Below are positions 9,498 to 62,339 of a DNA stretch of 64,000 nt, piece by piece (position 1 is the stretch's first letter; each line of letters opens with the position of its first letter). Below the pieces are notes generated by a model. That model did not search any database, was not told the DNA's origin, and saw only the letters and a program-made list of their open reading frames with translations. This stretch comes from Octopus vulgaris. Its lineage: Eukaryota. The stretch spans positions 111,476,001-111,540,000 of the forward strand of contig OX597818.1 of assembly GCA_951406725.2 (NCBI GenBank), written 5' to 3'. The translations under genes and the position numbers were made by a program.

Positions 9498-9947
9498 TAA
9501 TATTTAGCACAAGGACACACAAATTTTAAAGAAAACCATTGAATCAGTCAAGGTACCAGCTTGATCTTCAACTTATCAATCCAGCTTTGATAAAAAAAGG
9601 GGGGGGGCAGCGTTGTCTTAGCGGTCTTTGAATTGCGAACATGGGAGGATGGAAGCTAATGTTGCGAGATCTTTATCAGGCTACTCAAAGTCTGATTAAA
9701 AAGTATCGGGACTGTTGCTATAGGAACAGAGCTAAACTAAGCAGAGTGAATGACCTTCAACTCCGTCGCTCATGCGCACTAAGTCATAACGTTCTCGCTC
9801 AATTCCGATGTTTTTAGTTGTGTTTGGTAGTAACGTGGGGGAGAGTGTGGTCATCTCACCACACCACAGAGGTTCCATCAGTGGCCACGGAAATGAAAAC
9901 TGAGCTGATAATCTACCTCAAATTTTACCCAAAGCATAATCACCGTT

Positions 9948-10360
9948 TACTCTTTTACTCTTTTTACTCTTTTACTTGTTTCAGTCATTTGACTGTGGCC
10001 ATACTGGAGCACCGCCTGTAGTCGAGCAAATCGACCCCAGGACTTATTCTTTGTAAGCCTAGTACTTATTCTATCGGTCTCTTTTTCCGAACCGCTAAGT
10101 TACGAGGACCGTAAACACACCAGCATCGGTTGTCAAGCGATGTTGGGGAGACAGACATAGACACACAAACATATACACACACATACATATATATATGCAT
10201 ATATACAACGGGCTTCTTTCAGTTTCCGTCTTCCAGATCCACTCACAAGGCTTTGGTTGGCCCAAGGCTATAGTTGAAGACAACGTGCCACGCAGTAGGA
10301 CTGAACGCGGGACCATGTGGTTGGTAAGCAAGCTACTTACCGCACAGCAACTCCTACGCC
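9948..10360 (-). mobile_element. SINE family B, full length
   Basis: Reverse complement of the family B consensus with (gagtaaaa)n tail. Confidence 0.9.
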
Positions 10361-10702
10361 TATTATTATTTATCTTTCCTTTACACGTGATTGTGTCAAC
10401 CGAGTTATGATATATTCAGGTCTAGGTACAGTGAGGTGCTTTCAGGGGAGAAGCGAAAGAGAAGAATCGACCCCAGTACGACAATGGTACTTTGTCGATC
10501 TAGAAAAATAAAAGGGATAAGTTGCTCACGGGCGGATTTGAACTCGTTGTGCAACGAAACTGAACAAATACAGCACAGTATTCTCCGCCGCCCTGGCGAC
10601 CCTGCTAAATCGCTAACCCATGACTTGTAGTATTAAGATTCTTTAAGTTTTGGTAAATATTCTACTTTCAGGTCATTGAATAAAGCTTTCGTTATTGTAA
10701 CC

Positions 10703-14290: not shown

Positions 14291-14379
14291 ACTAATCTAA
14301 TTCATATTTAGTCCCCAAAGACGATACGAATGCACATGCATTACACTTATTCTCCGTTGTTTTCTATTATTCTTTATAC

Positions 14380-14794
14380 TCTTACTCTTTACTCTTTTAC
14401 ATGTTTCAGTCATTTGACTGCGGCCATGCTGGAGCACCGCCTTTAGTCGAGCAAATCGACCCCGGGACTTATTCTTTGTAAGCCCAGTACTTATTCTATC
14501 GGTCTCTTTTGCCGAACCGCTACGTAACGGGAACGTAAACACACCAGCATCGGTTGTCAAGCAATGCTAGGAGGACAAACACAGACACAAAAACACATAC
14601 ACACACATACATATATATATATACATATATACGACAGGCTTCTTTCAGTTTCCGTCTACCAAATCCACTCACAAGGCATTGGTCGGCCCGGGGCTATAGT
14701 AGAAGACACCTGCCCAAGATGCCACGCAGTAGGACTGAACCCGGAACCATGTGGTTGGTTAGCAAACTACTTACCACACAGCTACTCCTGCGCC
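14380..14794 (-). mobile_element. SINE family B, full length
   Basis: Complete reverse-complement copy from ggcgcaggagtagctgtgtgg to the (gagtaaa)n tail. Confidence 0.92.
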
Positions 14795-15540
14795 TATATT
14801 TATGTTTCTTTTATGAAATACACTTGGCTCTGCGTCTATAAATTACATTAGAATGATTACATAAGTGTTCTTTACAATCGATGATAGAGTATGTACACAC
14901 GAAAGTTTGCGGTCTCATTGCTTGCATCTTATGCGTCTATTTTTATTTTCACATCTGTACATATAGACGTTGTTTCCTGTATATTGTGATTCTTAACCGT
15001 AGGCAGCACCCACGCTCTCCAACACACACTCGCTTATGTATTTATGCATTTGTATATATATGTATATGTATACACAGTTTTGTATAACAAGTCTCTGATT
15101 TATTTTGGGAAAATTTCATGCTATCTCATTGTGTCGGAGGTTGCAGATTTCTAAGAAATAATGATATTTCGATTAAGATTTCAATGTAGATGTTACGTTT
15201 GAAATATGAGTTACAGCATCTATTTAATCTTATATAAGTCATATGTTAAATATACACCAACATTACAATATATAAGGAATGTAATGTAAAGTCAATGGTT
15301 TGTTGTGTCTTTTCAATGTATCTGATGTTAGTTTCACGTTGGTTTCCAAAACCGGCGTTCAGTTGTTTGAGCCAAAGAAGTACGTATTCGTCAGGGTCGT
15401 GGAGTTAATGGTTGTGTAATTCAGAAGTTTGTTTTAGGGTTGACGTAAGTTCTTTTTTCTTTTTTTGAATGAGAAGTATTGAAGCTGTGGCGAATGGATT
15501 ACATCTTTTTGTGGATGGCAATTATTACTTTCTTTACTAG

Positions 15541-17078: not shown

Positions 17079-17312
17079 TGTTTCTTTATTACCCACAAGG
17101 GGCTAAACACAGAGAGGACAAACAAGGACAGACAAACGGATTAAGTCGATTACATCCATCCCAGTGCGTAACTGGTACTTAATTTATCGACCTCGAAAGG
17201 ATGAAAGGCAAAGTCGACCTCGGCGGAATTTGAACCCAGAACGTAACGGCAGACGAAATACCGCTAAGCATTTCGCTCGGCATGCTAACGTTTCTGCCAG
17301 CTCGCTGCCTTT
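17079..17312 (-). mobile_element. SINE family A, tail type 1, with 17-bp TSD
   Basis: Full copy flanked by aaaacagtatagatgca at 17062-17078 and 17313-17329. Confidence 0.93.
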
Positions 17313-29874: not shown

Positions 29875-30107
29875 TATTTCTTTACTACCCACAAGGAGCT
29901 AAACACAGAGCGGACAAACAAGGACAGACAAACGGATTAAGTCGATTATATCGACCCCCTAGTGCGTAACTAGTACTTATTTCATCGACCCCGAAAGGAT
30001 GAAAGGCAAAGTCGACCTCGGCGGAATTTGAACTCAGAACGTAATGGCAGACAAAATACCGCTAGGCATTTCGCCCGGCGTGCTAACGTTTCTGCCAGCT
30101 CGTCGCC
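29875..30107 (-). mobile_element. SINE family A, tail type 1, with 16-bp TSD
   Basis: Flanked by tttattccgaagtacc at 29859-29874 and 30108-30123. Confidence 0.93.
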
Positions 30108-30699
30108 TTTATTCCGAAGTACCGTTAAGTTCTGAACTGCCTCTAGCATTATTATTAGGTTTTCTTTTGGGAAGATGGTGGTAGTTATCTTTGGGAAGGG
30201 TGTGCCAGTCCCTGGAGAAAGGGACATTGCGACTGATTCCCTTGCTTCCTTCACGAAGCATGACTTAGCTGGTTTCATAAAGACAGAGAGGTAGGAGAAA
30301 ATGAGAGACAGAGAGGAAGGGAACGAGAGAGAGAGAAGGAGAGAGAGAGAGGGAGAGAGAGAGAGAGGGAGAGAGAGAATGAGAGAGAGAAGGAGAAAGA
30401 GAGAAGAAGATAGCGAGAAGGAGAGAGAGAGAATCGATTCCAGTAATTGAATAGTACTTTGTCGACATCCCTGTTGAATAAAAGCGAAACATGGCCTCGG
30501 CAAAATCTGAACTCTGAGCGCAGAGAACTGGAAACCTAACTCGTGAGGACTTGTAACCGGTGCCTCCATCAGTTCGTTACTTTATCGCTAATTGCAACAT
30601 TTCTCGACCATGATCTGTTATTTATTGCTGTTCGGAATCAATGAATCCACTTTCAGAATATACATGCATTCATGTATGTGTGTGTGTGTGTGTGTGTGT

Positions 30700-35532: not shown

Positions 35533-35748
35533 CTATTTCTTTATTGCCCCCAAGGGGTGGGGCTAAGGACAAAGGGATTAAGTCGATTACATCGACTCCA
35601 GTGCGTAACTAGTATTTACTTCATCGACCCCGAAAGGATAAAAGGCAAAGTCGACCTCGGCGGAATTTGAACTCAGAACGTAGCGGCAGACGAAATACGG
35701 CTACGCCTTTCACCCGGCGTGCTAACCTTTCTGCCAGCTCACCGCCCT
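35533..35748 (-). mobile_element. SINE family A, tail type 1 variant
   Basis: Full head and body; tail reads ...ccttagccccaccccttgggggcaataaagaaata on the minus strand. Confidence 0.88.
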
Positions 35749-36041
35749 TCATGCGCACACATATCGACAAGGGAAAGTCTGACGTTGACGTCGTAGTGTT
35801 AAACTTGCAACAGTTTTGTGAGACTGTTCGACGAAGCTGGCGGAAGGCGAAACCTGTAAGTTTCTATTAAATTCTGTCTAAATAAATTTAATTCTCCTTT
35901 AAATGTATTGAATATTGCTATATTTACTTATACGATCGGCTGCGCATTTCCACCACTTATTTGACACATGTTACACATTCGACGTTTTTCGGCACAGTTC
36001 TTCCTGTCGGCTTTTATACGCAAGGTATCGATCAGCTTTGA

Positions 36042-36252: not shown

Positions 36253-38774
36253 GCATTTGAAAAGAGACAAAAAAAAAGAGAAAAAAAGAAAAAAGACAAA
36301 AAGAAAAAAGAAGGGCTGCTCAGTTTGATGAAATCTGTACCTCAAGATTGTGATGAGTTTTATTTCTATTGTAATTCTGGCTATAAAAGTCTGGTTTGAC
36401 TTTACCAAATTTATTCAGTAATAAGTAAACCCATAGCTTAGATTGAGGACCAAAACTAGATCATTGTACGTATAAGCTCATAAAGATCGAATAATTTTCT
36501 CATGTTTATCTGCAAAGTAATACAAAGCGTTTTTCAAATATTTAAGTCAATATTTCTGTGTTTTTGTCAATTATGTAACGTTTTGGCAACATCTTGAAGG
36601 TTATCTCGTGACAAACCTCCCAATCATAATTTCCTATCACTCCTACCTGAATACGTGTCATCAATCTCACATAGAAGATACAATTTTCATGTCAGTTCAG
36701 AGTTTAAAACATGAAAAAACAGGAGTAGTTTATAGTCTAAAAACATTAAACATTTCCTGGGATAAAATCTGACATGTGCGATAAGAAAAGGATACATGAT
36801 GTGAATCCATTCTTTATAAGTAAAACTGTAAGACGTAGTAAGACAACTTCCTAGTTTGAAATTCAACTCAGCTAAATTAACTGGAGAAGAAAATTTATTG
36901 TTAATGAACGTATTTCAGGTAACATCAGGGTACAAGTTAATTGTAATATATAAATGCGATAATAAAGAAATATTAGAGAAAGGCTAAAATCATTCTCTAT
37001 CGTTAAACAAATAAGGTAGACAATTCTCAAAGTGATTTCGTCTTACTCTGACCTCAACAGCGATATGTAGTTATCATGTTCTTGTCGAAATAATTTACAA
37101 TGAATGACCCACTATTTGCATATTAAAACATGATGTACAAACTAGAATCTTTCAGAGATTAAATAATACATGTTTAAAGACTCAATCTAGAAAGGAATTG
37201 AGTTCCAGAAATACTGTACTTTTTTACTGTCTCCGGTAGAAGTTCGTAGGTAATAGAGAGTTACGAGGATAACTTTGCAGCCGCGTGGATTAAAACTAGA
37301 GACAGCAAGTGTTTTCTTAGTCCCTTTTGCAGGATTTGATTGATTACCTGAACGATTTTGTGTTACCATTGAACAGAAACCTGGTTCACTAAGCACCAAA
37401 GACCAATATAAGTTATTTTTATAAGTCATCACTTTCTCTAAAATTTTCATACAAATTTAACTTAGTACCGCTAACATCTAAAACAAACAAATGCTAAATG
37501 GGACAGAATAGAAAATTGGATTATAAAACCTTGTACAAAATTAAAGTCTGTTTGATTAATGTCCTTGAGCTGGAATTGAAACCGAATCAGAAATGGTACT
37601 TTAGCTCCGGTCGCTTAACTCCTATTTAATTCTTGTTTGTCCTCATTTTCAGTTGACTGAAGATGAATGGTAGGCTACTAACATTTAGTTACATTACTAA
37701 GGTCCTTTGTTCAAATCCTATCCAGTCCAATTCGGAGTTCAGTCCCTACGCCCACCCCCCGATATCGATAAGCTCCCTATTAGTGATGTAGAAAGGTCCA
37801 GCTCAGCCACAAAATGTTTATAAGTTTCGAGCTTACGATGGAACCGTGTGCATGATCGATCCATCTCTTAGAAATAACTGTCAAATCTCCATCACATTGC
37901 TTTGTACAGTTTTAAAAAGAGAGAAAGAACACACTGGATAATGTGGGCTTGGATATACAAAAAGAACGGGATTTTCACGACCGGAGCATATTTCTGATCG
38001 ATCGAGGAATTCGATAGAAAATACATTTATGAACTGCAGTGCCTATACTACAAAGGTTTCGTGGTGTATTAAAAATATTCTGCCAATATATTATTTTCAG
38101 CCGAGAAGTGATATATTCGGACAACTTTCTCAACTGTAGTTCGTAACCTTTTCATCATCAAAGATTGCTATTATTTAAATGAATTTTCTTGTGGACTCCA
38201 GGATTTACAAAGTTCTCTTTATGTAATAAAACTATGTTATTGACTTACGAAGTCATTATTCTAGTTTCACCACTCAATCAATCAAAAGATAGACGCAGCT
38301 GCATAATTAGGCATTTTGATACAACAGCCTTTTCAGATTTTAGACAACGCTCACCATCCGTTAGAACTTAATCTGCAGATCTGAAAAGGTGTGCGGAGCC
38401 AGGAAGGGATACGGTTGTTCTATAATGTAAAACCAACTCAAAATAAGCCTGGAGCCAAAGAAGGAATCTCTACTTGATTACTAGACCTACAAGAAACAGC
38501 AGACAAATCACCTTTGAATCATACTGTACACTCTTGAAAGAAATAAAAAAACGAAACAGGGGCACATTACAAAATCTAAGGTAGATAATACACAATGGCT
38601 GCAAAAAAAACATTGAGCTTGCCAATGGAAACATTTTAGATGAGAGTTTTGGCAGAATAAAACTGATATAGTGGTACGAACCGAAGCAAAGGACTCTCTG
38701 AATGGTTGCGTGACTCATAAAGGTAGCAGCCAAATTTTCTTTGATCATGTACTACCGACTTAACAAAGAGAATA

Positions 38775-47480: not shown

Positions 47481-47763
47481 AAGGAATTATAGGTTAGGAT
47501 GAACGCCTGGCACTTATTTTCATCGCTTGATACAGGACCTGTTATACAGAGAAATTGTTAAGAAACTACAAACCACACGAATATTAAATTGATTGAATGA
47601 TCCTATAATTTCTGAGTTGTACTTACGCGAGAGAATTGATCTAAGATCATGTGTTAGAACTGAGGCAACATGGAAGAGTCATTTCAGCCAGTTAGAAAAA
47701 CACACAATTGCTATCTTCATTTTCGTATTATAATTAGTAATTTTAGTATTTTAATTATCAATA

Positions 47764-47948
47764 GGCACAGGAGTGGCCGTGTGGTAAGTAGCGTGCTTAC
47801 CAACCACACGGTTCCGTGTTCAGTCCTACTGCGTGGCACCTTGGTCGACCAATGCCTTGTGAGTGGATTTGGCAGACGGAAACTGAAAGAAACCCGTCCT
47901 ATATATGTATGCATGTATGTATGTATGTATATATATATATATATACGC

Positions 47949-47979
<31 letters not shown>

Positions 47980-48181
47980 TGTGTGTGTATGTTTGTGCGT
48001 CTGTATTTGTCCCGCCAACATTGCTTGACAACCGATGCTGGTGTGTTTACATCCCCGTAACTTAGCGGTTCGGCAAGAGACCGATAGAATAAGTCCTGGG
48101 GTCGATTTGCTAAAACTAAAAATGGTGCTCCAGCATGGCCGCAGTCAAATGACTGAAACAAGCAAAAGAGTAAAAGAGTAA
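47764..48181 (+). mobile_element. SINE family B, full length with internal deletions
   Basis: ggcacaggagtggccgtgtggtaag...gactgaaacaagcaaaagagtaaaagagta. Confidence 0.9.
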
Positions 48182-48347
48182 GCGTAATCGTATTTTAAAT
48201 TATCACAACCCTTTGTCAAGGTTCTGCAACGCTAATCACAGACACGATTTCACTGTATCTTTTTACAGTTATTTTGGAAATGTATGTATGAAATTCTGTA
48301 CGATAGTTGCCTACTCTATGTATATATGTATATATATGTACGATGAA

Positions 48348-48572
48348 GGCGGCGAGCTGGCAGAAACGTTAGCATGCCGGGCGAAATGCGTAGCCGTATT
48401 TCGTCTCTTGATACGTTCCGAGTTCAAATTCCGCCGAGGTCGACTTTGCCTTTCATTCTTTCGGGGTCGATAAATTAAGTTGCAGTTACGCACTGGGGTC
48501 GATATAATCGACTTAATCCGTTTGTCTGTCTTTGTTTGTTCCCTCTGTGTTTACCCCTTGTGGGTAGTAAAG

Positions 48573-48576
<4 letters not shown>
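48348..48576 (+). mobile_element. SINE family A, tail type 1
   Basis: Full head; tail tttgtctgtctttgtttgttccctctgtgtttaccccttgtgggtagtaaagaaata. Confidence 0.92.
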
Positions 48577-48645
<69 letters not shown>

Positions 48646-49842: not shown

Positions 49843-50217
49843 TACAGACCGAACCATCAAGGCCAATAAACCAGATATTGTTGTGAAAGACCAAAACAAT
49901 AAAGTTTGCTTATTGATCGACATGAGCATCCCCTGTGATCATAATATCTCAGCGAAAGAGTTTGACAAGCTCAGAAAATATAAAGACCTACTCATTGAAA
50001 TTGAGAAAATGTGGCACCTCAAGGCGGTTACAATACCAGTGATCGTAGGAGCACTAGGAATGATCAAGAAGGGAACCGAAAATTATATGAGAATGATCCC
50101 TGGCTTACCATCCCTGCAAGAAGTGCAAAAGATTGTCTTAACTGGTACATCACACGTATTGAGAAGAGCATTGTCGATGTGAGAACTGTTGCTGCTCATG
50201 TATTTTAATTTAACTTA
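49841..50217 (+). mobile_element. R4/Dong-type 3' fragment, subfamily A (RLE domain, open to stop at 50182)
   Basis: TDRTIKANKPDIVVKD...LLIDMSIP...DKLRKYKDL...PVIVGALG; starts directly after (TAA)n at 49770-49840. Confidence 0.92.
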
Positions 50218-50920
50218 AAAAAACATGTAATGAAAAGAAATATTACAAGTAACTGCAGAATATGTGGAGATGGACAAGAAACAATAAATTATATTATCTC
50301 TAGCTGCCCAGTCCTGGCTAAGAAGGAATATATTCACAGACATGACAGAGTTGGAACCTACATACATTGGAAGCTATGCCAACATTATGGAATAACAACA
50401 GAAAAAAGATGGTATAGGCACACACCAGAAAAGGTCACAGAAAACGAGAAAGCAACCATATTCTGGGATATGCCGATACACACAGATAGAGAAATTAAGG
50501 CCAACAGACCAGATATAGTTGTCAGAGATCATGAAGAAAAAAATGCTTTCTAATTGATGTATCAATACCGGCAGATGACAACGTGTCTCTAAAAGAAATG
50601 GAGAAACTCTCAAAATACAAAGACCTGGAAATAGAGGTAACTAGAATGTGGAATCTGAAAACAGAAACAATTCCTATCATAGTAGGTGCATTAGGCATGA
50701 TAAAAAAATATTCAGACAAATACATAACAAAAACACCAGGACTTACAAACACATATAACATACAGAAAATTGCACTACTAGGCACTGCACACATCCTACG
50801 CAGAACACTTTCCATACAATAACCATCAGAGCATCACAACAAATTACAGCACATACCCAAGGCACACAGAGCTGCGCTCGGTAGTGAAGTGAAAGCACGC
50901 TATAAAAATAAAACTACTGA
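50218..50920 (+). mobile_element. R4/Dong-type 3' fragment, subfamily B (zinc knuckle, RLE, 3' UTR), one frameshift
   Basis: CRICG...ETINYIISSC, RHDRV, RPDIVV; continues in the -1 frame as CFLIDVSIP..EKLSKYKDL; followed by (TAA)n. Confidence 0.93.
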
Positions 50921-52588: not shown

Positions 52589-53950
<1,362 letters not shown>

Positions 53951-53957
53951 AGAAGAT

Positions 53958-54116
53958 GGGCTTCTTTTCAGTTTCCGTCTACCAAATCCACTCACAAAAC
54001 ATCGATCAGCCCGAGTCTATAGTTGAAGACACTCGCCCAAGGTGCCACATAGTGGGACTGAACCCAGAACCATGTGGTTGGGAAGCAAGCTTGTTACCAC
54101 ACAGCCACTCCTGCGC
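53958..54116 (-). mobile_element. SINE family B, 5' half
   Basis: Reverse complement of ggcgcaggagtggctgtgtgg...gaaactgaaaagaagccc. Confidence 0.88.
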
Positions 54117-54443
54117 CTATTTATTACCTCTGCCTTAGTGAAGGCCGAGGTATTGTTTTTCAGACGCGTTTGTTTGTTTGTCTGTGGACAAGATATCTCA
54201 AGAATCGCTGGATGGATTCTAATGAAACTTTCAGCGATGTTTGACCTCGTGAGTGGCACAAACTGATTAGATTTTGGTATCGATCCGGTACCGAACAAGA
54301 ATTCTGGATTATTTTACCTGTTTTTTACTTAATATTTGAGAGCGGTTGGGTTCAGTTTTAGTATTCTCGTTTGTCAGAACAGTCGAGTTTATTTCAGATA
54401 TTCTCGCTTTAAAATTCATCTCTGGCTAATCGTTGAGAGGACG

Positions 54444-56243
54444 CCGGCGTTGTCGTTAGTGTTTCGTATGATTTAGTGAGTTGGAAATGTATACGCTCCT
54501 TGTGAGTATCGTTTTTAACTGTTATTTATTGAATTGTTGGATTGTTGTTACCTGTTGCACTCATTGTTACCGTCTTTTAACTTTATTCCCCATTTATGGG
54601 TGAAATTGTGAACATTATGGAAGGTACAGCAGTGCAAGCGGGCAGTTATGCTGCAGTGACTGGCAAAAGCCTGTCAGCGGAGGGACTGCAAGTCAAGGAA
54701 ATTAGTTGAAGGAGAAAAACTTTAAAAAATACAATGATTTATTGAGAAAGGAGAGAGATAGTTTGAGGTTGACGCACCCCCACAGAAGTAATAAATAAAA
54801 CGAAGAGGGTAACAATTGTGTACAGAACATTAAAAATTGGAACAAAAAAGGTGGAAATAGCAGCAGTAGCGGAGGTCGAGGAGTGCCTCAGAGAATTTTA
54901 GAACGTAGTGACTTACTACAACAGAGGAAGGAAATACGGCACAGTGGAGGTACGCATCGTGAGTGAAGAAGAAGCGAGGAAATACTCCACTGTGCCTTTG
55001 AGATCAGCAGAGTGGGCCCTGCTACCGACATACTGTGGCAAACGTGCGGCCAGAGTTAGAATAGGTAGAGTTTCCCCAGAAATTGATGAGGCGTTGCTGG
55101 TGGCAGCCATCCTCTTTAACACAGAGGAGGACACTGAGATAATAAAAATATCAAGAACTACGGAGGTGAAATGATGAGGGTATTGACTAGAGGCATTGGT
55201 CCATATAAGCTTGCCAGACTTGCACAAGATTGCGGAGGAACTGATACTGCCGGACGAAGCAAGGTTGATAATAGTGGTGGAAGGAAGACCGCCGGTATGC
55301 TTTCTTTGTGGGGTAAGGGGACACATGAAAGCAAGGTGTCCCCAGCAACAAGAAAAGGAAGTAGTACAAGAGAAGCAGGAAGAGGAAGAGGAACAAAGAG
55401 CGGAGGTACAAATGCAAATAAGCGAAAAGTTAGAAAATGTAGGAGAAAAATAGACAGTTGGAAAAAGGAAGAAGAAAAGAGAGGAGAACGTTAATTCACC
55501 ACCCAAAAGTTCATACAAAAAGAGAAAAGAAAATATAGAGAAGAATCACTGCGAAAGACAAGATATACCCCCCCCACAAAAAAAAGAGAGAAAATTACGG
55601 AGGAGGAAGGAAGTGCACAGAAAGGAAAGGAAGAGAGAAGAGAGATAGCAACAACAAAGAGTAAGAGAGATACAGGTATGGATGAGACACCAATACCAGG
55701 AACATCAGGAGAGAATAACGACGGAAAACAGGAGTTGGTACCGAAAGGAAAACACATTCGAACGATGATAAACTATAAAAAGAGTGTAGAGATCGAAAGA
55801 TTACAAAAATGAAAAACGGAATCAGAGAGGGAGTGTACCGAGAACGACGAGGTGGTCTTGCTTGAGAGAGACAGAGGTGAAAGGTTAAAGGAACTATTTG
55901 GTGACAAAATGGAAATATCGCCGTTACAAGTTCGATTCGATGAGATGCCACCAGTGGCATTTGAGGATATAATACAATATGTAATATGAAAGTGGAATAT
56001 TTAAAATTTCAAAATAATGACTTTTCAAGCAAAAACAAACAAAAAAGAACAATGTTAATATGTGATACATAACCAATTAAATGACACTACCTGCGTCTGG
56101 GTGCAGGGAAGACATTTCATTTTTCATGATATCATTATATTCATAATTTCGTTCGTTATGTTTTAAGTACCCCACTGTGTTGGGTTGTCTGTCCTTGTAT
56201 TGTCCCTTCTCTGTAGAACCAATGTTCTCATAATAAAGAAAAT
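54444..56243 (+). mobile_element. ORF1-only L1/Tx1-like retroposon (HAL1-like), 1800 bp
   Basis: 6-bp TSD aggacg (54438-43 / 56244-49), 3' taataaagaaaat, gag-like ORF1 relic, no recognisable APE or RT motifs. Confidence 0.7.
54617..55790 (+). pseudogene. Disrupted L1/Tx1-type ORF1 (gag-like) with CX2CX4HX4C zinc knuckle
   Basis: MEGTAVQAGSYAAV N-terminus; ARVRIGRVSPEIDEALL and IVVEGRPPVCFLCGVRGHMKARCP resemble Tx1/L1 ORF1; broken by stops and frameshifts; end coordinate approximate. Confidence 0.7.
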
Positions 56244-56888
56244 AGGACGTGGATGTTGACTTGGCGGAGGTTTGCGCGCTTTGAGTGCTCTTGTTTTATA
56301 TTATTTTTTATAAATTCTATATATTTATTTTATCATAAATGCGAAACACCTCCACAGAGGAATCGACGTAAGTTTAAATAATAAACAGCGATAAGTGAAC
56401 CGTGATATGGCGAGTGATTACTGCATACATACATATACACACATATAAATATATCTCAATTTTATTTCATTTAAAAAAATTTTATTCGTTTTCTTTCTAC
56501 AGTTGTTTGCATGACTTACGTTAAATGCCATCAACTCTAATTGAAAATAACGAGAAATAATGCTGAAGCTTTTTTTTTGTGTTCTACTTTTCTAAATGTT
56601 CAGCTTCGAACGTTTGTTTTTGCCACTTTTAACTCAAAGCAATTTTAAGTATGTCATGGGTATTGTGCTGAACTATTAATATTACAGGAATCTAACGTCG
56701 AGCGACATGTTTGAAAAAAAAACTGACCTCTTAAATTACCCAGAATAATTTTCAGTGCATAACAACTAAGTCAACATGCATACATACATACGTATACATA
56801 CGTGTATACACACACACACACACATATGTATATATCTATGTATGTATATATATATGTATGTATGTATATATATATATATATGTATATG

Positions 56889-59698: not shown

Positions 59699-60289
59699 CG
59701 AAAGTTCGTGTGTATAAGAAATAATTCATCTCCTCATCGATGTCAGATGAACTAAGCATTGATGCAGCTCAATTAGAACGTATTTTTTTGCGAAATATCA
59801 AAGTGAAAGAAATAAAAATTTTAATTGAAGAGGATATTCACAGGCAAAGAAATAGAATCATTGATGTTATTAGAAGTGTTTCACCATGTACACAACTTGC
59901 TATCATTGCTTTAATCATGTCGAATCTCAACCGAATGAGATGCACGAGTGAGAAGCGACAGTACTCACCTGGTCGCTCGTCTTGCAAGACTACAATACAA
60001 ATCACACACCACCATCTTGGGTGACATCGTTAATTTGTAGCTTATGTTTAAACCAAGCTCTGGTCTTTGAGTGCTTCTAGTGGAGTCCTCTCTGTTACAA
60101 ACATTAGGAACAGGCACTCAGTGCGTATGTAACTTCTTCGCTTTTTCCCATCTGTTATGAATTAACTGAGATCCTATTTAGAAGATGAGCTTTCCCTGGT
60201 TAGCTGATGGAGATATCTGTCCTTGTATTATTAAAAGCTGGGGTGAATACATCCAGAGCAAAAGTATCAATCAGCTTTGAAGCGAGTGC

Positions 60290-60840
60290 AGTATACAAGC
60301 GCAAAAGGAGTGTAAACGCTTACTGCATCACTGCACAGGAAAAAGAGTGCATTGGGATGTTAGCCAAGTGTGTGGCTTAAAAAAAAAAGCCAGAAAAGTG
60401 GTAAGAACACGAACCAGGAGCTGTGATAGAAAATGAGAATTACAAGCTCTTGTGGGATTTCCTAACAATAACTGACCATTATAGTGAAGCAAGAAGATCG
60501 GATCATAAATAACAAAATAAACAGTGTAAGATCATAGGTTTTGAAAATCCTTTTGATAACAGGATTGATATAAAAAAGACTGAAATATTGAGAAATATCC
60601 AGATCTAGCCAGAAAGTTGAGGAGACTGCAGTAACTGGTGCACTTAGAACCACATGCAAAAAGCAAAAATGCTACCAGGCAGAAGGGATTCGAATTGGAA
60701 CTCGCATCGGCCAGCTGCAGAAAAGTACCATCCTATATATTCTGCAAGAATTCTAAGGAAGATTCTTCAGATTTGGGGAGACTTGCTGTCCCCAAAACAT
60801 CAAGATAAAATACCTGCCCCCAAAATTAGCATGTACCAAC
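60290..60840 (+). pseudogene. Degenerate R4/Dong-type 3' fragment, subfamily D
   Basis: KW*EHEPGAVIENENYKLLWDF...TDHYSEARRSD, VTGALRT; followed by (TAG)/(TAA)/(TGA) repeats. Confidence 0.7.
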
Positions 60841-61231: not shown

Positions 61232-62292
61232 TCAACTGGCTGTACTTGTAGAGATACCAGGGCAGAAGATGCTTAATAGCACAAGAAGAATGTGTATAGC
61301 GGAAAGAAAAAGTATAGTAGAGTATTTACAGAGCGGCACAGAAAAAAACTACTAAAGCCAGTTAATAAAGAAGAGGTTATGAAGCGCGTGATACGAGAAA
61401 AGGGCAAGAATGAAATACAAAGAGAGCACGCCAGAGAGGTCGAAGGGAAACCTCTGAATGGCCAATTTTGAAGACCCACTGAAGACGTATGTGGAAGAAA
61501 ATCTGGGGCTTGGTTAAAAAAGGAGCCATTAAAAGAAGAAACAGGGAGCCGAGTTGTAGCAGCCCAGGCGATAAAAACAAACAACTTGAGAAAAAAAAAT
61601 ACATGGAGAGAATGTGTCAGAAAAATGTTGAGTCAGTGGAACTTTGAACAGTGGCACACATTGTGGAAGAATGCCCAAATTTGGCACAGGAAGAACATAA
61701 GAAATGGAGGCACGACCAGGTTGTTAAAGTTTTGCATTGGAAACTGTGCCAGAAATGCGGATTCGAAGCTGGAAACACATGGTACAATCATCGAGCCGAA
61801 AAAGCACCGAAGTCTGAGAAATGTAAGATTTTGTGGGATTTTCCTATTCAAACAGACAAGAAGTTAGAAAATAATAGATCCGACATAACGATTAGAGAAA
61901 AGGAAATGCGAAGTTGCTTACTTATCGATGATGCATCATGCCCTTTCATTCCAGGATTATGAAGAAAGAGGAAGAAAAATAATACAATTCCTTAAAATTT
62001 GGAACAGAAAAATTTCGGAGCATGTGGACAGTACAGGTCGTGACTATAATGATTGGTGCGTTGGGAACAGTGTGTAAATAGATAGACTAACGACGGAAAG
62101 AGATTGGAATAGAATGCACGGTAGAATTCCAACAGAAAGTTTGTCTCTTAGGGAGAGCAAGTGTTATCAGGTAGGGTCCTAAGGACTTGAAAGGCTGCTG
62201 AAAACTTGTGGATACCTAAGGTTACGAGCAGTAACCCGCTTTCCACATGAATCCTATCAAGAATAAGATCGAACCTGAGCCAAACACCAAAG

Positions 62293-62295
<3 letters not shown>
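61232..62295 (+). mobile_element. R4/Dong-type 3' fragment, subfamily E (RT C-terminus, CCHC, RLE), degenerate
   Basis: GKPLNGQF, VVAAQ, VAHIVEECPNLAQ..RHDQV..LHWKLC, CKILWDFPIQTD..NRSDI, IGALGT; (TAA)n on both sides. Confidence 0.9.

Positions 62296-62339
<44 letters not shown>

What the first reader, a model, noticed from the sequence alone, without database searches (positions are those of the whole stretch)
56185..56243. A SINE subfamily and the ORF1-only element share one 3' terminus: candidate LINE / half-LINE / SINE system
Seen: the 1.8-kb element ends ttgtctgtccttgt-a-ttgtcc-ct-tctctgt-AGAAC(caat)GTTCT-ca-taataaagaaaat. The tail-type-1 SINE at 17079-17312 ends (minus strand) ttgtctgtccttgt-ttgtcc-tctctgt-gttta-GCCC(cttgt)GGGT-aataaagaaa, and copies at 29875, 48348 and 35533 have related tails. 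They share a 14-nt identical block, a short hairpin of different sequence at the same position, and TAATAAAGAAA with no long poly(A). Established: SINEs often carry the 3' tail of the LINE whose RT mobilises them, recognised through a stem-loop. Inference: an autonomous L1/Tx1-type LINE, absent from this window, drives both an ORF1-only derivative and this SINE subfamily by stringent 3'-end recognition. I do not know whether this pairing has been described.
Basis: partly seen in the sequence, partly recalled or inferred. Interest (0 to 1): 0.8.

Follow-up and report, generated by a model that had tools for sequence, protein, structure and literature searches.

The report
Octopus half-LINE sharing a SINE tail
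An octopus jumping-gene family of about 1.8 kb that keeps only the RNA-binding gene of a LINE retrotransposon ends in a sequence 70-74% like the end of one subfamily of a common short repeat (SINE), so both likely borrow the copying enzyme of related, not yet identified, full-length LINEs.

Summary
The shared tail is real. Three SINE copies match the element's last 59 nt at 40-42 of 57 columns (0 of 3000 shuffles, global score); 35533 and the other tail types do not. The tail is not a separate SINE insertion. The 1.8-kb unit sits inside a Helentron-like repeat with a target duplication and an empty site in 4 of 4 public runs. Diverged copies carry the same UTR-tail junction. The unit has a decayed type I ORF1 (two predicted RRM folds, CCHC knuckle) and a 254-nt 3' UTR with no room for ORF2. 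Relatives are deeply diverged across octopods. So it is an ORF1-only non-autonomous LINE (the HAL1/Sponge/HeT-A kind). No autonomous LINE was found, and L1/Tx1 is inferred only. The hairpin argument is weak: the loop CTTGT is SINE-wide, the element's loop is CAAT, and folding beats shuffles in only 1 of 4 tails. New lead: other copies seem to follow the same host-repeat site (Tx1-like targeting or cargo), whereas the SINE copies do not, which argues against one single driver. Verdict: new variant of a known kind.

The parts
54122..54437 (+). Left part of the host repeat, a very high-copy non-autonomous Helentron/HINE-like element (subterminal IR ACCTCTGCC at 54126, short internal IR, GTTT microsatellite)
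   Evidence: Sequence; summed contig depth 3e5-9e5 in three runs versus 4e2-1e4 inside the insert (table 2); feature list from PMC4067079 passages
54438..54452 (+). Left target-site duplication: AGGACG exact (54438-54443), probably a decayed 15-mer (11/15 identity)
   Evidence: joint 54437->56244 skipping 1806 nt with 6 ambiguous letters in 4, 6, 6 and 7 contigs of 4 runs; one paralogous contig aligns from 54452
54453..54616 (+). 5' UTR of the ORF1-only element (5' end at 54444 with a 6-bp TSD or about 54453 with a 15-bp TSD)
   Evidence: tables 3, 5, 8
54617..55989 (+). Decayed type I ORF1: N-terminal region, two predicted RRM folds, one CCHC knuckle (about 55295-55345), low-complexity linker, conserved C-terminal ferredoxin-like domain, stop at 55987-55989; 5 in-frame stops in 54773-55567 plus frameshifts
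   Evidence: (zf-CCHC E 7.6e-4)
55990..56184 (+). T-rich 3' UTR, no ORF2 (longest stop-free stretch in the 254 nt after the stop is 35 codons; no Pfam hit)
56185..56243 (+). 3' tail shared with type-1 SINEs: 30-nt TG/TC block, hairpin AGAAC(CAAT)GTTCT, AATAAA, GAAAAT
56244..56258 (+). Right target-site duplication (AGGACG exact at 56244-56249)
56259..56295 (+). Right end of the host HINE-like repeat: subterminal IR GGCGGAGGT, 3' palindrome, T-run
   Evidence: joints
17079..17312 (-). tRNA-type SINE, tail type 1, 17-bp perfect TSD
29875..30111 (-). SINE, tail type 1, about 16-bp TSD
48346..48578 (+). SINE, tail type 1, in a (TA)n tract
35533..35750 (-). SINE with a shortened related tail (type 1b) that lacks the 14-nt block

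Best explanation
The 1.8-kb unit is a decayed copy of a multicopy octopus element that carries a LINE-type ORF1 but no ORF2, and its 3' end is homologous to the tail of one SINE subfamily; both were likely copied in trans by the reverse transcriptase of related full-length LINEs, probably of the L1/Tx1 group. Shown: boundaries, target duplication, empty site, paralogues, ORF1 architecture (fold predicted), lack of ORF2, tail homology. Inferred: (1) the element arose by internal deletion of ORF2 from an autonomous LINE, keeping its 5' promoter region, ORF1 and 3' UTR; (2) the SINE, which has one head and body but at least three tail types, gained the type-1 tail by template switch onto the 3' end of a LINE of the same lineage, probably a sister family rather than this very element, given 70-74% identity and a different hairpin; (3) an ORF2p binds these 3' ends and inserts by target-primed reverse transcription with duplications of about 14-17 bp; (4) this element's partner may prefer a site in the HINE-like repeat, as Tx1-clade elements prefer DNA transposons.
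For: Empty-site joint 54437->56244 (skip 1806, 6 ambiguous letters) in 4 of 4 runs, and a roughly 500- to 900-fold depth step at the 5' boundary. Diverged contigs (up to about 20% different) cover ORF1, and shared non-reference bases are seen at the UTR-tail junction, in all 4 runs. In X10 a contig with non-reference bases aligns from <=56085 to 56247, and in X2 one spans at least 62 nt either side of 56183. 402 cluster representatives match the ORF1 core at E<=0.001. Of 30 looked up, 18 carry an octopod name (Octopus bimaculoides, O. vulgaris, O. sinensis, Argonauta) and 12 no species name. Predicted model with pLDDT about 90+ over the core, tandem-RRM hits (Foldseek E 5e-5 onward; VIA Z 8.4, rmsd 2.4, 80 residues to La RRM); ESM neighbours are CCHC and ZCCHC3-RBD clusters (0.93-0.90). 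Tail statistics. SINE TSDs of about 14-17 bp fit a 15-bp decayed TSD for the element. O. vulgaris has 80 L1-Tx1 families, 13 recently active, averaging about 5.4 kb per recent insertion (PMC13282606). Tx1 targeting of DNA transposons is documented (PMC4494074). Weak: 20 of 22 Logan/ENA contigs holding ORF1 relatives are <=2.4 kb.
Against: No autonomous LINE with this ORF1 or tail was retrieved. Type I ORF1 is found in I, Jockey, R1, Tad1, L1, L2 and CR1 (PMC4120745), so the clade is unproven. The hairpin segment is only 4-5/16 identical, its loop differs from the SINE-wide CTTGT, and only 1 of 11 consensus pairs shows a two-sided change among 4 sequences. A 5-bp Watson-Crick stem occurs in 1.6-5.2% of background 16-20-mers, 8-20% with G-U. 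AATAAA is expected at the end of any Pol II element and is AGTAAA in 2 of 3 type-1 SINEs. SINE copies do not share the element's apparent target site.
Confidence: 0.6

Rival explanations
1. Shared ancestry but different machinery: a SINE picked up the 30-nt block from this element or its LINE by one template switch or recombination, but is still mobilised through its own CTTGT hairpin by another LINE.
For: A >=4-bp stem around CTTGT or a one-base variant is present in 10 of 13 SINE copies across all tail types, with different stems; the element has CAAT. SINE flanks do not resemble the host-repeat site that precedes paralogues of the element.
Against: The match runs on both sides of the hairpin with the same spacing to the 3' end. 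70-74% over 57 nt is at the low edge of accepted bivalve SINE-LINE pairs (72-95% over 35-61 bp, PMC11481361). TSD lengths are alike.
Confidence: 0.2
2. Cargo: one internally deleted LINE inserted once into the Helentron-like repeat and the composite was then amplified by rolling-circle transposition or duplication, so there is no retrotransposing half-LINE family.
For: Contigs carrying family alleles at 54465-54472 align leftward into the host repeat to 54422 (X1), 54407 (X2) and 54381 (X15), i.e. other copies sit behind the same site.
Against: ORF1 relatives form a deep radiation (core identity 25-80%, branches of several octopod species interleaved) far older than one insertion. Depth is highest over the RRM/knuckle region, as for many subfamilies. 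Same-site insertion is also what Tx1 targeting predicts.
Confidence: 0.1
3. The ORF1-only lineage has no ORF1+ORF2 parent any more and rides on an ORF1-less LINE (RTE or R4/Dong type), possibly supplying ORF1p in trans; the SINE uses the same LINE.
For: No ORF2 link found for 150 homologues. Short contigs around relatives, including four at 1849-1930 nt and four at 1884 nt. RTE and Dong-R4 are active in octopus (PMC13282606).
Against: The LINE 3' fragments in the window that look R4/Dong-like (label recalled) end in (AAT)n, unlike this tail. One distant relative lies on a 6.2-kb contig, long enough for ORF2. Short contigs are the norm in these collections.
Confidence: 0.06
4. 56185-56243 is a separate, 5'-truncated SINE insertion, or a chance match of T/G-rich sequence.
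For: Only 30 nt align well, and the block is of simple composition; 7 unrelated metagenome contigs carry a 20-21-nt version of the block by chance.
Against: Shuffle controls 0 of 3000. No TSD around the tail alone, while the TSD and empty site bracket the whole unit. Paralogues join UTR and tail. The apparent SINE-like TAAGTACC just upstream is private to this copy (other contigs differ at 56166). The element has its own hairpin.
Confidence: 0.04

Closest known systems
HAL1 (half-L1), Ag-Sponge (CR1-derived) and HeT-A (Jockey-derived) ORF1-only non-autonomous LINEs (PMC5786205, PMC5753468 passages)
   Same: Encodes only ORF1p, keeps LINE 5' and 3' ends, multicopy, needs ORF2p in trans
   Different: Mollusc; type I ORF1 (2 RRM + one CCHC + extra C-terminal ferredoxin-like domain) instead of HAL1's type II ORF1; no long poly(A); tail shared with a tRNA SINE; parent LINE not identified
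Tx1-clade LINEs (Tx1L in Tx1D; crocodilian Tx1-Mar with SINEU; PMC4494074 passages)
   Same: RRM+CCHC ORF1 consistent with Tx1 (PMC5203782); insertion into a non-autonomous DNA transposon, apparently at a recurring site; about 15-bp TSD
   Different: No ORF2 here; SINEU was linked to Tx1-Mar by shared target with no shared tail, whereas here the tail is shared and the target apparently is not
Stringent SINE/LINE pairs with a common tail (UnaSINE/UnaL2; L1-clade pairs ZmSINE2/3 with LINE1-1_ZM and SINEX-3_CR with L1-1_CR; PMC3747384 Table 1)
   Same: About 57-nt homologous 3' end with a terminal hairpin
   Different: In those pairs the loop is conserved and the stem varies; here the loop differs. 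Table 1 of that 2013 review lists no animal SINE with an L1 or Tx1 tail
Tail-swapping SINE superfamilies (MetaSINEs, PMC4824008; bivalve HCD SINEs, PMC11481361); octopus OR1/OR2/OK SINEs (Ohshima and Okada 1994, seen only as citations)
   Same: One tRNA head and body with several exchangeable tails
   Different: Reported mollusc partners are CR1, CR1-Zenon, L2 and Nimb; which named family this SINE is was not established

Membership tests
ORF1-only non-autonomous LINE (HAL1/Sponge/HeT-A kind) | Encodes a LINE ORF1-type protein | tested here: met
   zf-CCHC; tandem RRM fold predicted for homologue P0008; ZCCHC3-RBD/CCHC neighbours
ORF1-only non-autonomous LINE (HAL1/Sponge/HeT-A kind) | No ORF2 between ORF1 and the 3' end | tested here: met
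   254 nt from stop to end, longest open stretch 35 codons, no Pfam hit
ORF1-only non-autonomous LINE (HAL1/Sponge/HeT-A kind) | Inserted as one unit with a TSD | tested here: met
   AGGACG duplication; empty-site joint in 4 of 4 runs
ORF1-only non-autonomous LINE (HAL1/Sponge/HeT-A kind) | The deleted form itself amplified by retrotransposition (many independent full-length ORF1-only insertions) | tested here: inconclusive
   Diverged contigs tile the unit and span the UTR-tail junction, but no contig spans a whole paralogue, and same-site flanks allow cargo amplification
ORF1-only non-autonomous LINE (HAL1/Sponge/HeT-A kind) | Identified autonomous parent sharing ORF1 and both ends | not testable with these tools
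   No genome held; collection scans empty or chance
HAL1 in the strict sense | Derived from mammalian L1 with type II ORF1 (coiled coil-RRM-CTD, Transposase_22) | tested here: not met
   Type I architecture; no Transposase_22 among the families listed for 40 aligned homologues (25 of 31 families shown) or
L1/Tx1 clade | RT phylogeny groups with L1/Tx1; APE endonuclease | not testable with these tools
   No ORF2 available
L1/Tx1 clade | Type I ORF1 (RRM + CCHC) | tested here: met
   not clade-specific (PMC4120745)
L1/Tx1 clade | Target preference for a repeat (frequent in Tx1) | tested here: inconclusive
   Paralogous contigs align into the same host-repeat site in 3 of 4 runs, and a fourth has 29 loose letters there; cargo amplification not excluded
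Stringent SINE/LINE pair | Homologous 3' terminal sequence | tested here: met
   40-42/57, 0 of 3000 shuffles; the partner compared is the half-LINE, not an autonomous LINE
Stringent SINE/LINE pair | Stem-loop with conserved loop and compensatory stem changes shared by both | tested here: inconclusive
   Hairpin at the same position but different loop; 1 of 11 pairs with a two-sided change in 4 sequences; z-scores mostly weak
Stringent SINE/LINE pair | Tail required for retrotransposition by the partner ORF2p | not testable with these tools
   Needs a cell assay
MetaSINE / CORE-SINE (SINE superfamily) | Central domain matches the published consensus | tested here: inconclusive
   Resemblance to the Meta-domain is recalled only; motif search in 2 supplements of PMC4824008 was empty and file 1 was not searched
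HINE / DINE-1-like Helentron derivative (host repeat) | Subterminal inverted repeats, 5' internal IR, 3' palindrome, T-rich ends, microsatellite | tested here: met
   ACCTCTGCC / ACCTCCGCC (8 of 9), other features visible in the sequence against PMC4067079 passages; link to an autonomous Helentron not tested

The most novel reading that the evidence does not exclude
Octopods host a deep radiation of Tx1/L1-type LINEs and ORF1-only derivatives that use stringent, structured 3' tails. An abundant tRNA SINE survives by swapping tails among them, and this half-LINE targets a Helentron-derived repeat. That would be a three-member LINE / half-LINE / SINE system with an L1/Tx1-derived shared tail in an animal, which the papers searched here do not report.
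Probability: 0.25. Interest if true: 0.65.

Novelty: new variant of a known kind. Interest (0 to 1): 0.42.

Why it matters
SINEs make up about 12% of the O. vulgaris genome and 893 of its 900 recently active SINE families are unclassified (PMC13282606); no partner LINE for them turned up in the searches run here. This tail gives a concrete probe for the partner of one subfamily. It also adds an ORF1-only non-autonomous LINE in a mollusc to a short list (HAL1, HeT-A, Ag-Sponge). If the partner is L1/Tx1 and recognition is stringent, it bears directly on whether animal L1-clade elements were ancestrally stringent (the open question in PMC3747384).

Tried and rejected
No genome was held. Pattern scan of viral contigs: 0 hits. 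Metagenome scan: 7 hits, none octopus-like; only one 22-nt match to the window. ORF1 locus searches in viral and prokaryote genome contigs: 70 and 236 pattern hits, none confirmed. Longer-protein searches for ORF1 fused to ORF2 in gene models: none of 2522 and 7999 candidates (weak). Earlier-findings look-ups: nothing for this genome or sequence; two unrelated notes. Rfam: no match on the SINE. No RNA holder listed among sequencing runs, which says nothing on expression. The loose-end table of the read overlay was filled by a neighbouring high-copy SINE, so flanks of tail-only contigs were not visible. No human L1 ORF1p chain among the listed fold hits. The C-terminal domain had no usable ESM hit and only generic ferredoxin-like matches, Z<=6.8. 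Rejected: the tail as a truncated SINE; the TAAGTACC/CACT likeness upstream of the tail as SINE body (private to this copy); 35533 as a carrier of the 14-nt block; the 60213-60229 14-nt match and TAATAAAGAAA at 36960 as further copies (no flanking similarity); the R4/Dong-like fragments in the window as partner (different, (AAT)n ends). Literature searches found no description of this element or pairing. Repbase, Dfam, the Zenodo library of PMC13282606, Bao and Jurka 2010 (not held) and Ohshima and Okada 1994 could not be seen and may already hold these families.

Full report
Setting. No genome is held for this window. The window is AT-rich, microsatellite-laden animal DNA. The closest protein relatives of the element are Octopus bimaculoides gene models at 56-77% identity, so the source is inferred to be an octopus.

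Observation. The 14-mer occurs at 56185, 17135(-), 29931(-) and, with one mismatch, 48522; 6 hits at up to 2 mismatches against 0.55 expected. The element's last 59 nt match three SINE tails at 42, 40 and 40 of 57 columns: 25-26/30 in the first block, 4-5/16 across the hairpin, 10-11/11 at the end. No shuffle of 3000 reached the global score for any of the three, and they are the best non-self scores among 3654 windows. The copy at 35533 lacks the block (global 199 of 3000). Eight type-2/3 tails show no convincing match (best global 20 of 3000). The terminal motif is TAATAAAGAAA in 17079 only; two copies read TAGTAAAGAAA.

Boundaries. The 1.8-kb unit interrupts a very high-copy repeat with subterminal inverted repeats, a 5' internal inverted repeat, a GTTT microsatellite and a 3' palindrome, the features given for HINE/DINE-1 elements (PMC4067079, passages). 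AGGACG is duplicated at 54438 and 56244, extending to 11/15 identity in the same register. Contigs of four public runs (organisms A, B, D, E) show the empty site: joint 54437->56244, skipping 1806 nt with 6 ambiguous letters, in 4, 6, 6 and 7 contigs. Summed depth falls roughly 500- to 900-fold across the 5' boundary (depth is not a copy number). ORF1, UTR and tail therefore entered as one unit. Contigs up to about 20% diverged cover ORF1 in all four runs, beside near-identical contigs of this locus in X1, X2 and X10. Non-reference bases at 56166 (6, 8, 6, 16 contigs) and 56183 (16, 20, 17, 30 contigs) come with alignments from 56085 or earlier to 56247 in X10 and of at least 62 nt either side of 56183 in X2. 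Other copies thus join the same UTR to the same tail. A one-base gap at 56199 (5-56% of depth by run) matches the SINE form of the block. The tables were cut, and no contig spans a whole paralogue.

Coding part. From ATG 54617 to the stop at 55987 lies a decayed ORF with 5 in-frame stops in 54773-55567 and frameshifts; most other contigs lack the stop at 54899. Pfam finds one CCHC knuckle (E 7.6e-4). phmmer gives 402 representatives at E<=0.001; of 30 looked up, 18 carry octopod names including Argonauta and 12 no species name. A model of homologue P0008 on a 40-row alignment has pLDDT about 90+ over the core and matches tandem-RRM proteins (VIA Z 8.4, rmsd 2.4, 80 aligned). ESM neighbours are CCHC and ZCCHC3-RBD clusters. 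This is a type I ORF1 (PMC4120745, PMC5203782, passages). A conserved C-terminal domain is predicted as beta-alpha-beta-beta-alpha-beta (pLDDT 72-89; generic matches Z<=6.8). A tree of 28 of the cores shows long, interleaved lineages from several octopods with weak deep support. Only 254 nt separate the stop from the 3' end, with at most 35 open codons and no Pfam hit: no ORF2.

Partner LINE. Not found. None of the 150 listed homologues showed RT or endonuclease families, and longer-protein searches were empty; ORF2 is a separate ORF, so this is weak either way. 20 of 22 Logan/ENA contigs holding relatives are 1.1-2.4 kb and two are 3.5 and 6.2 kb; short contigs are normal there. O. vulgaris has 80 L1-Tx1 families, 13 recently active with 421 insertions over 2.29 Mb (PMC13282606, parts 1-2 of 3 and supplement search), so candidates exist. 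L1/Tx1 is inferred from the ORF1 type, AATAAA with a short A-rich end, TSD length and target behaviour.

Hairpin. The SINE has one head and body and at least three tails. Ten of 13 copies have a stem of 4 bp or more around CTTGT or a one-base variant, with different stems per tail type. That is a SINE-wide motif that looks covarying. The element's loop is CAAT. Its tail folds no better than shuffles (z -0.96), and 5-bp stems occur in 1.6-5.2% of background 16-20-mers. In documented stringent pairs the loop is conserved (PMC3747384, passages). The hairpin therefore does not by itself show a shared recogniser.

New lead. Distances to alignment ends put the left ends of contigs with family alleles at 54422 (X1), 54407 (X2) and 54381 (X15), constant over two to three neighbouring positions. 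These lie inside the host repeat. In X10 a diverged contig aligns from 54452 with 29 loose letters. Other copies thus seem to follow the same site (the X15 case could be an orthologue; I did not see the contig letters). That fits Tx1-like targeting of a DNA transposon (Tx1L/Tx1D, Tx1-Mar; PMC4494074, passages) or cargo amplification, and favours a 15-bp TSD. None of 4 type-1/1b SINE 5' flanks resembles the site. If targeting is real, the SINE's driver is a sister LINE rather than the same one.

Comparison and novelty. ORF1-only non-autonomous LINEs are known: HAL1, HeT-A, Ag-Sponge (PMC5786205, PMC5753468, passages). Shared SINE/LINE tails and tail swapping are known (PMC4824008 passages and section 9; PMC4758252, PMC11481361, PMC3531059, PMC8967140 passages). 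Table 1 of PMC3747384 lists L1-clade pairs only in maize/sorghum and Chlamydomonas, and SINEU was tied to Tx1 by target, not tail. Ten literature searches showed no account of this element or pairing, but Repbase, Dfam and deposited octopus libraries could not be checked, and file 1 of the MetaSINE supplement was not searched. The R4/Dong and Meta-domain labels are recalled, not tested. Verdict: a real, modestly novel variant of known kinds; the decisive piece, the autonomous LINE, remains to be found. Interest 0.42.

Noticed in passing
SINE copies at 17079, 29875, 48348, 36041, 39208, 46946, 63198, 35362, 13883, 14112: All tail types end in a hairpin with loop CTTGT (or one-base variant) and type-specific stems, which looks like covariation (10 of 13 copies).
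   Followed up: partly
window 54381-54452: Diverged copies of the element appear to follow the same site of the HINE-like host repeat in three runs: possible target-site preference or cargo amplification.
   Followed up: partly
window 55740-55989: About 85-aa C-terminal ORF1 domain conserved among octopod relatives, no Pfam or ESM family, predicted ferredoxin/RRM-like fold.
   Followed up: partly
window 49844-50182, 50300-50900, 60380-60800, 61470-62300: Four decayed 3' fragments of LINEs with a restriction-like endonuclease motif (R4/Dong-like, label recalled; no endonuclease family in Pfam for the two scanned), followed by or near (AAT)n tracts.
   Followed up: no
proteins P0017, P0072, P0112, P0149, P0046: Pieces of this ORF1 are spliced into gene models (WD40, astacin-ShK, LDLa, RGS proteins); P0046 joins the C-terminus of one copy to a second copy, hinting at neighbouring copies.
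   Followed up: no
proteins P0075/P0152: Distant intact 861-aa ORF1 relative on contigs of 3.5 and 6.2 kb; the longer one could hold an ORF2.
   Followed up: no
window 9505-9600 (-): Short stretch resembling a type-2/3 SINE tail before a (TAG)n tract without a clear SINE body.
   Followed up: no
window 53949-54126 and related copies (e.g. 47752-48192, 9947-10383, 14367-14813): A second, very high-copy interspersed repeat abuts the host repeat's 5' end.
   Followed up: no
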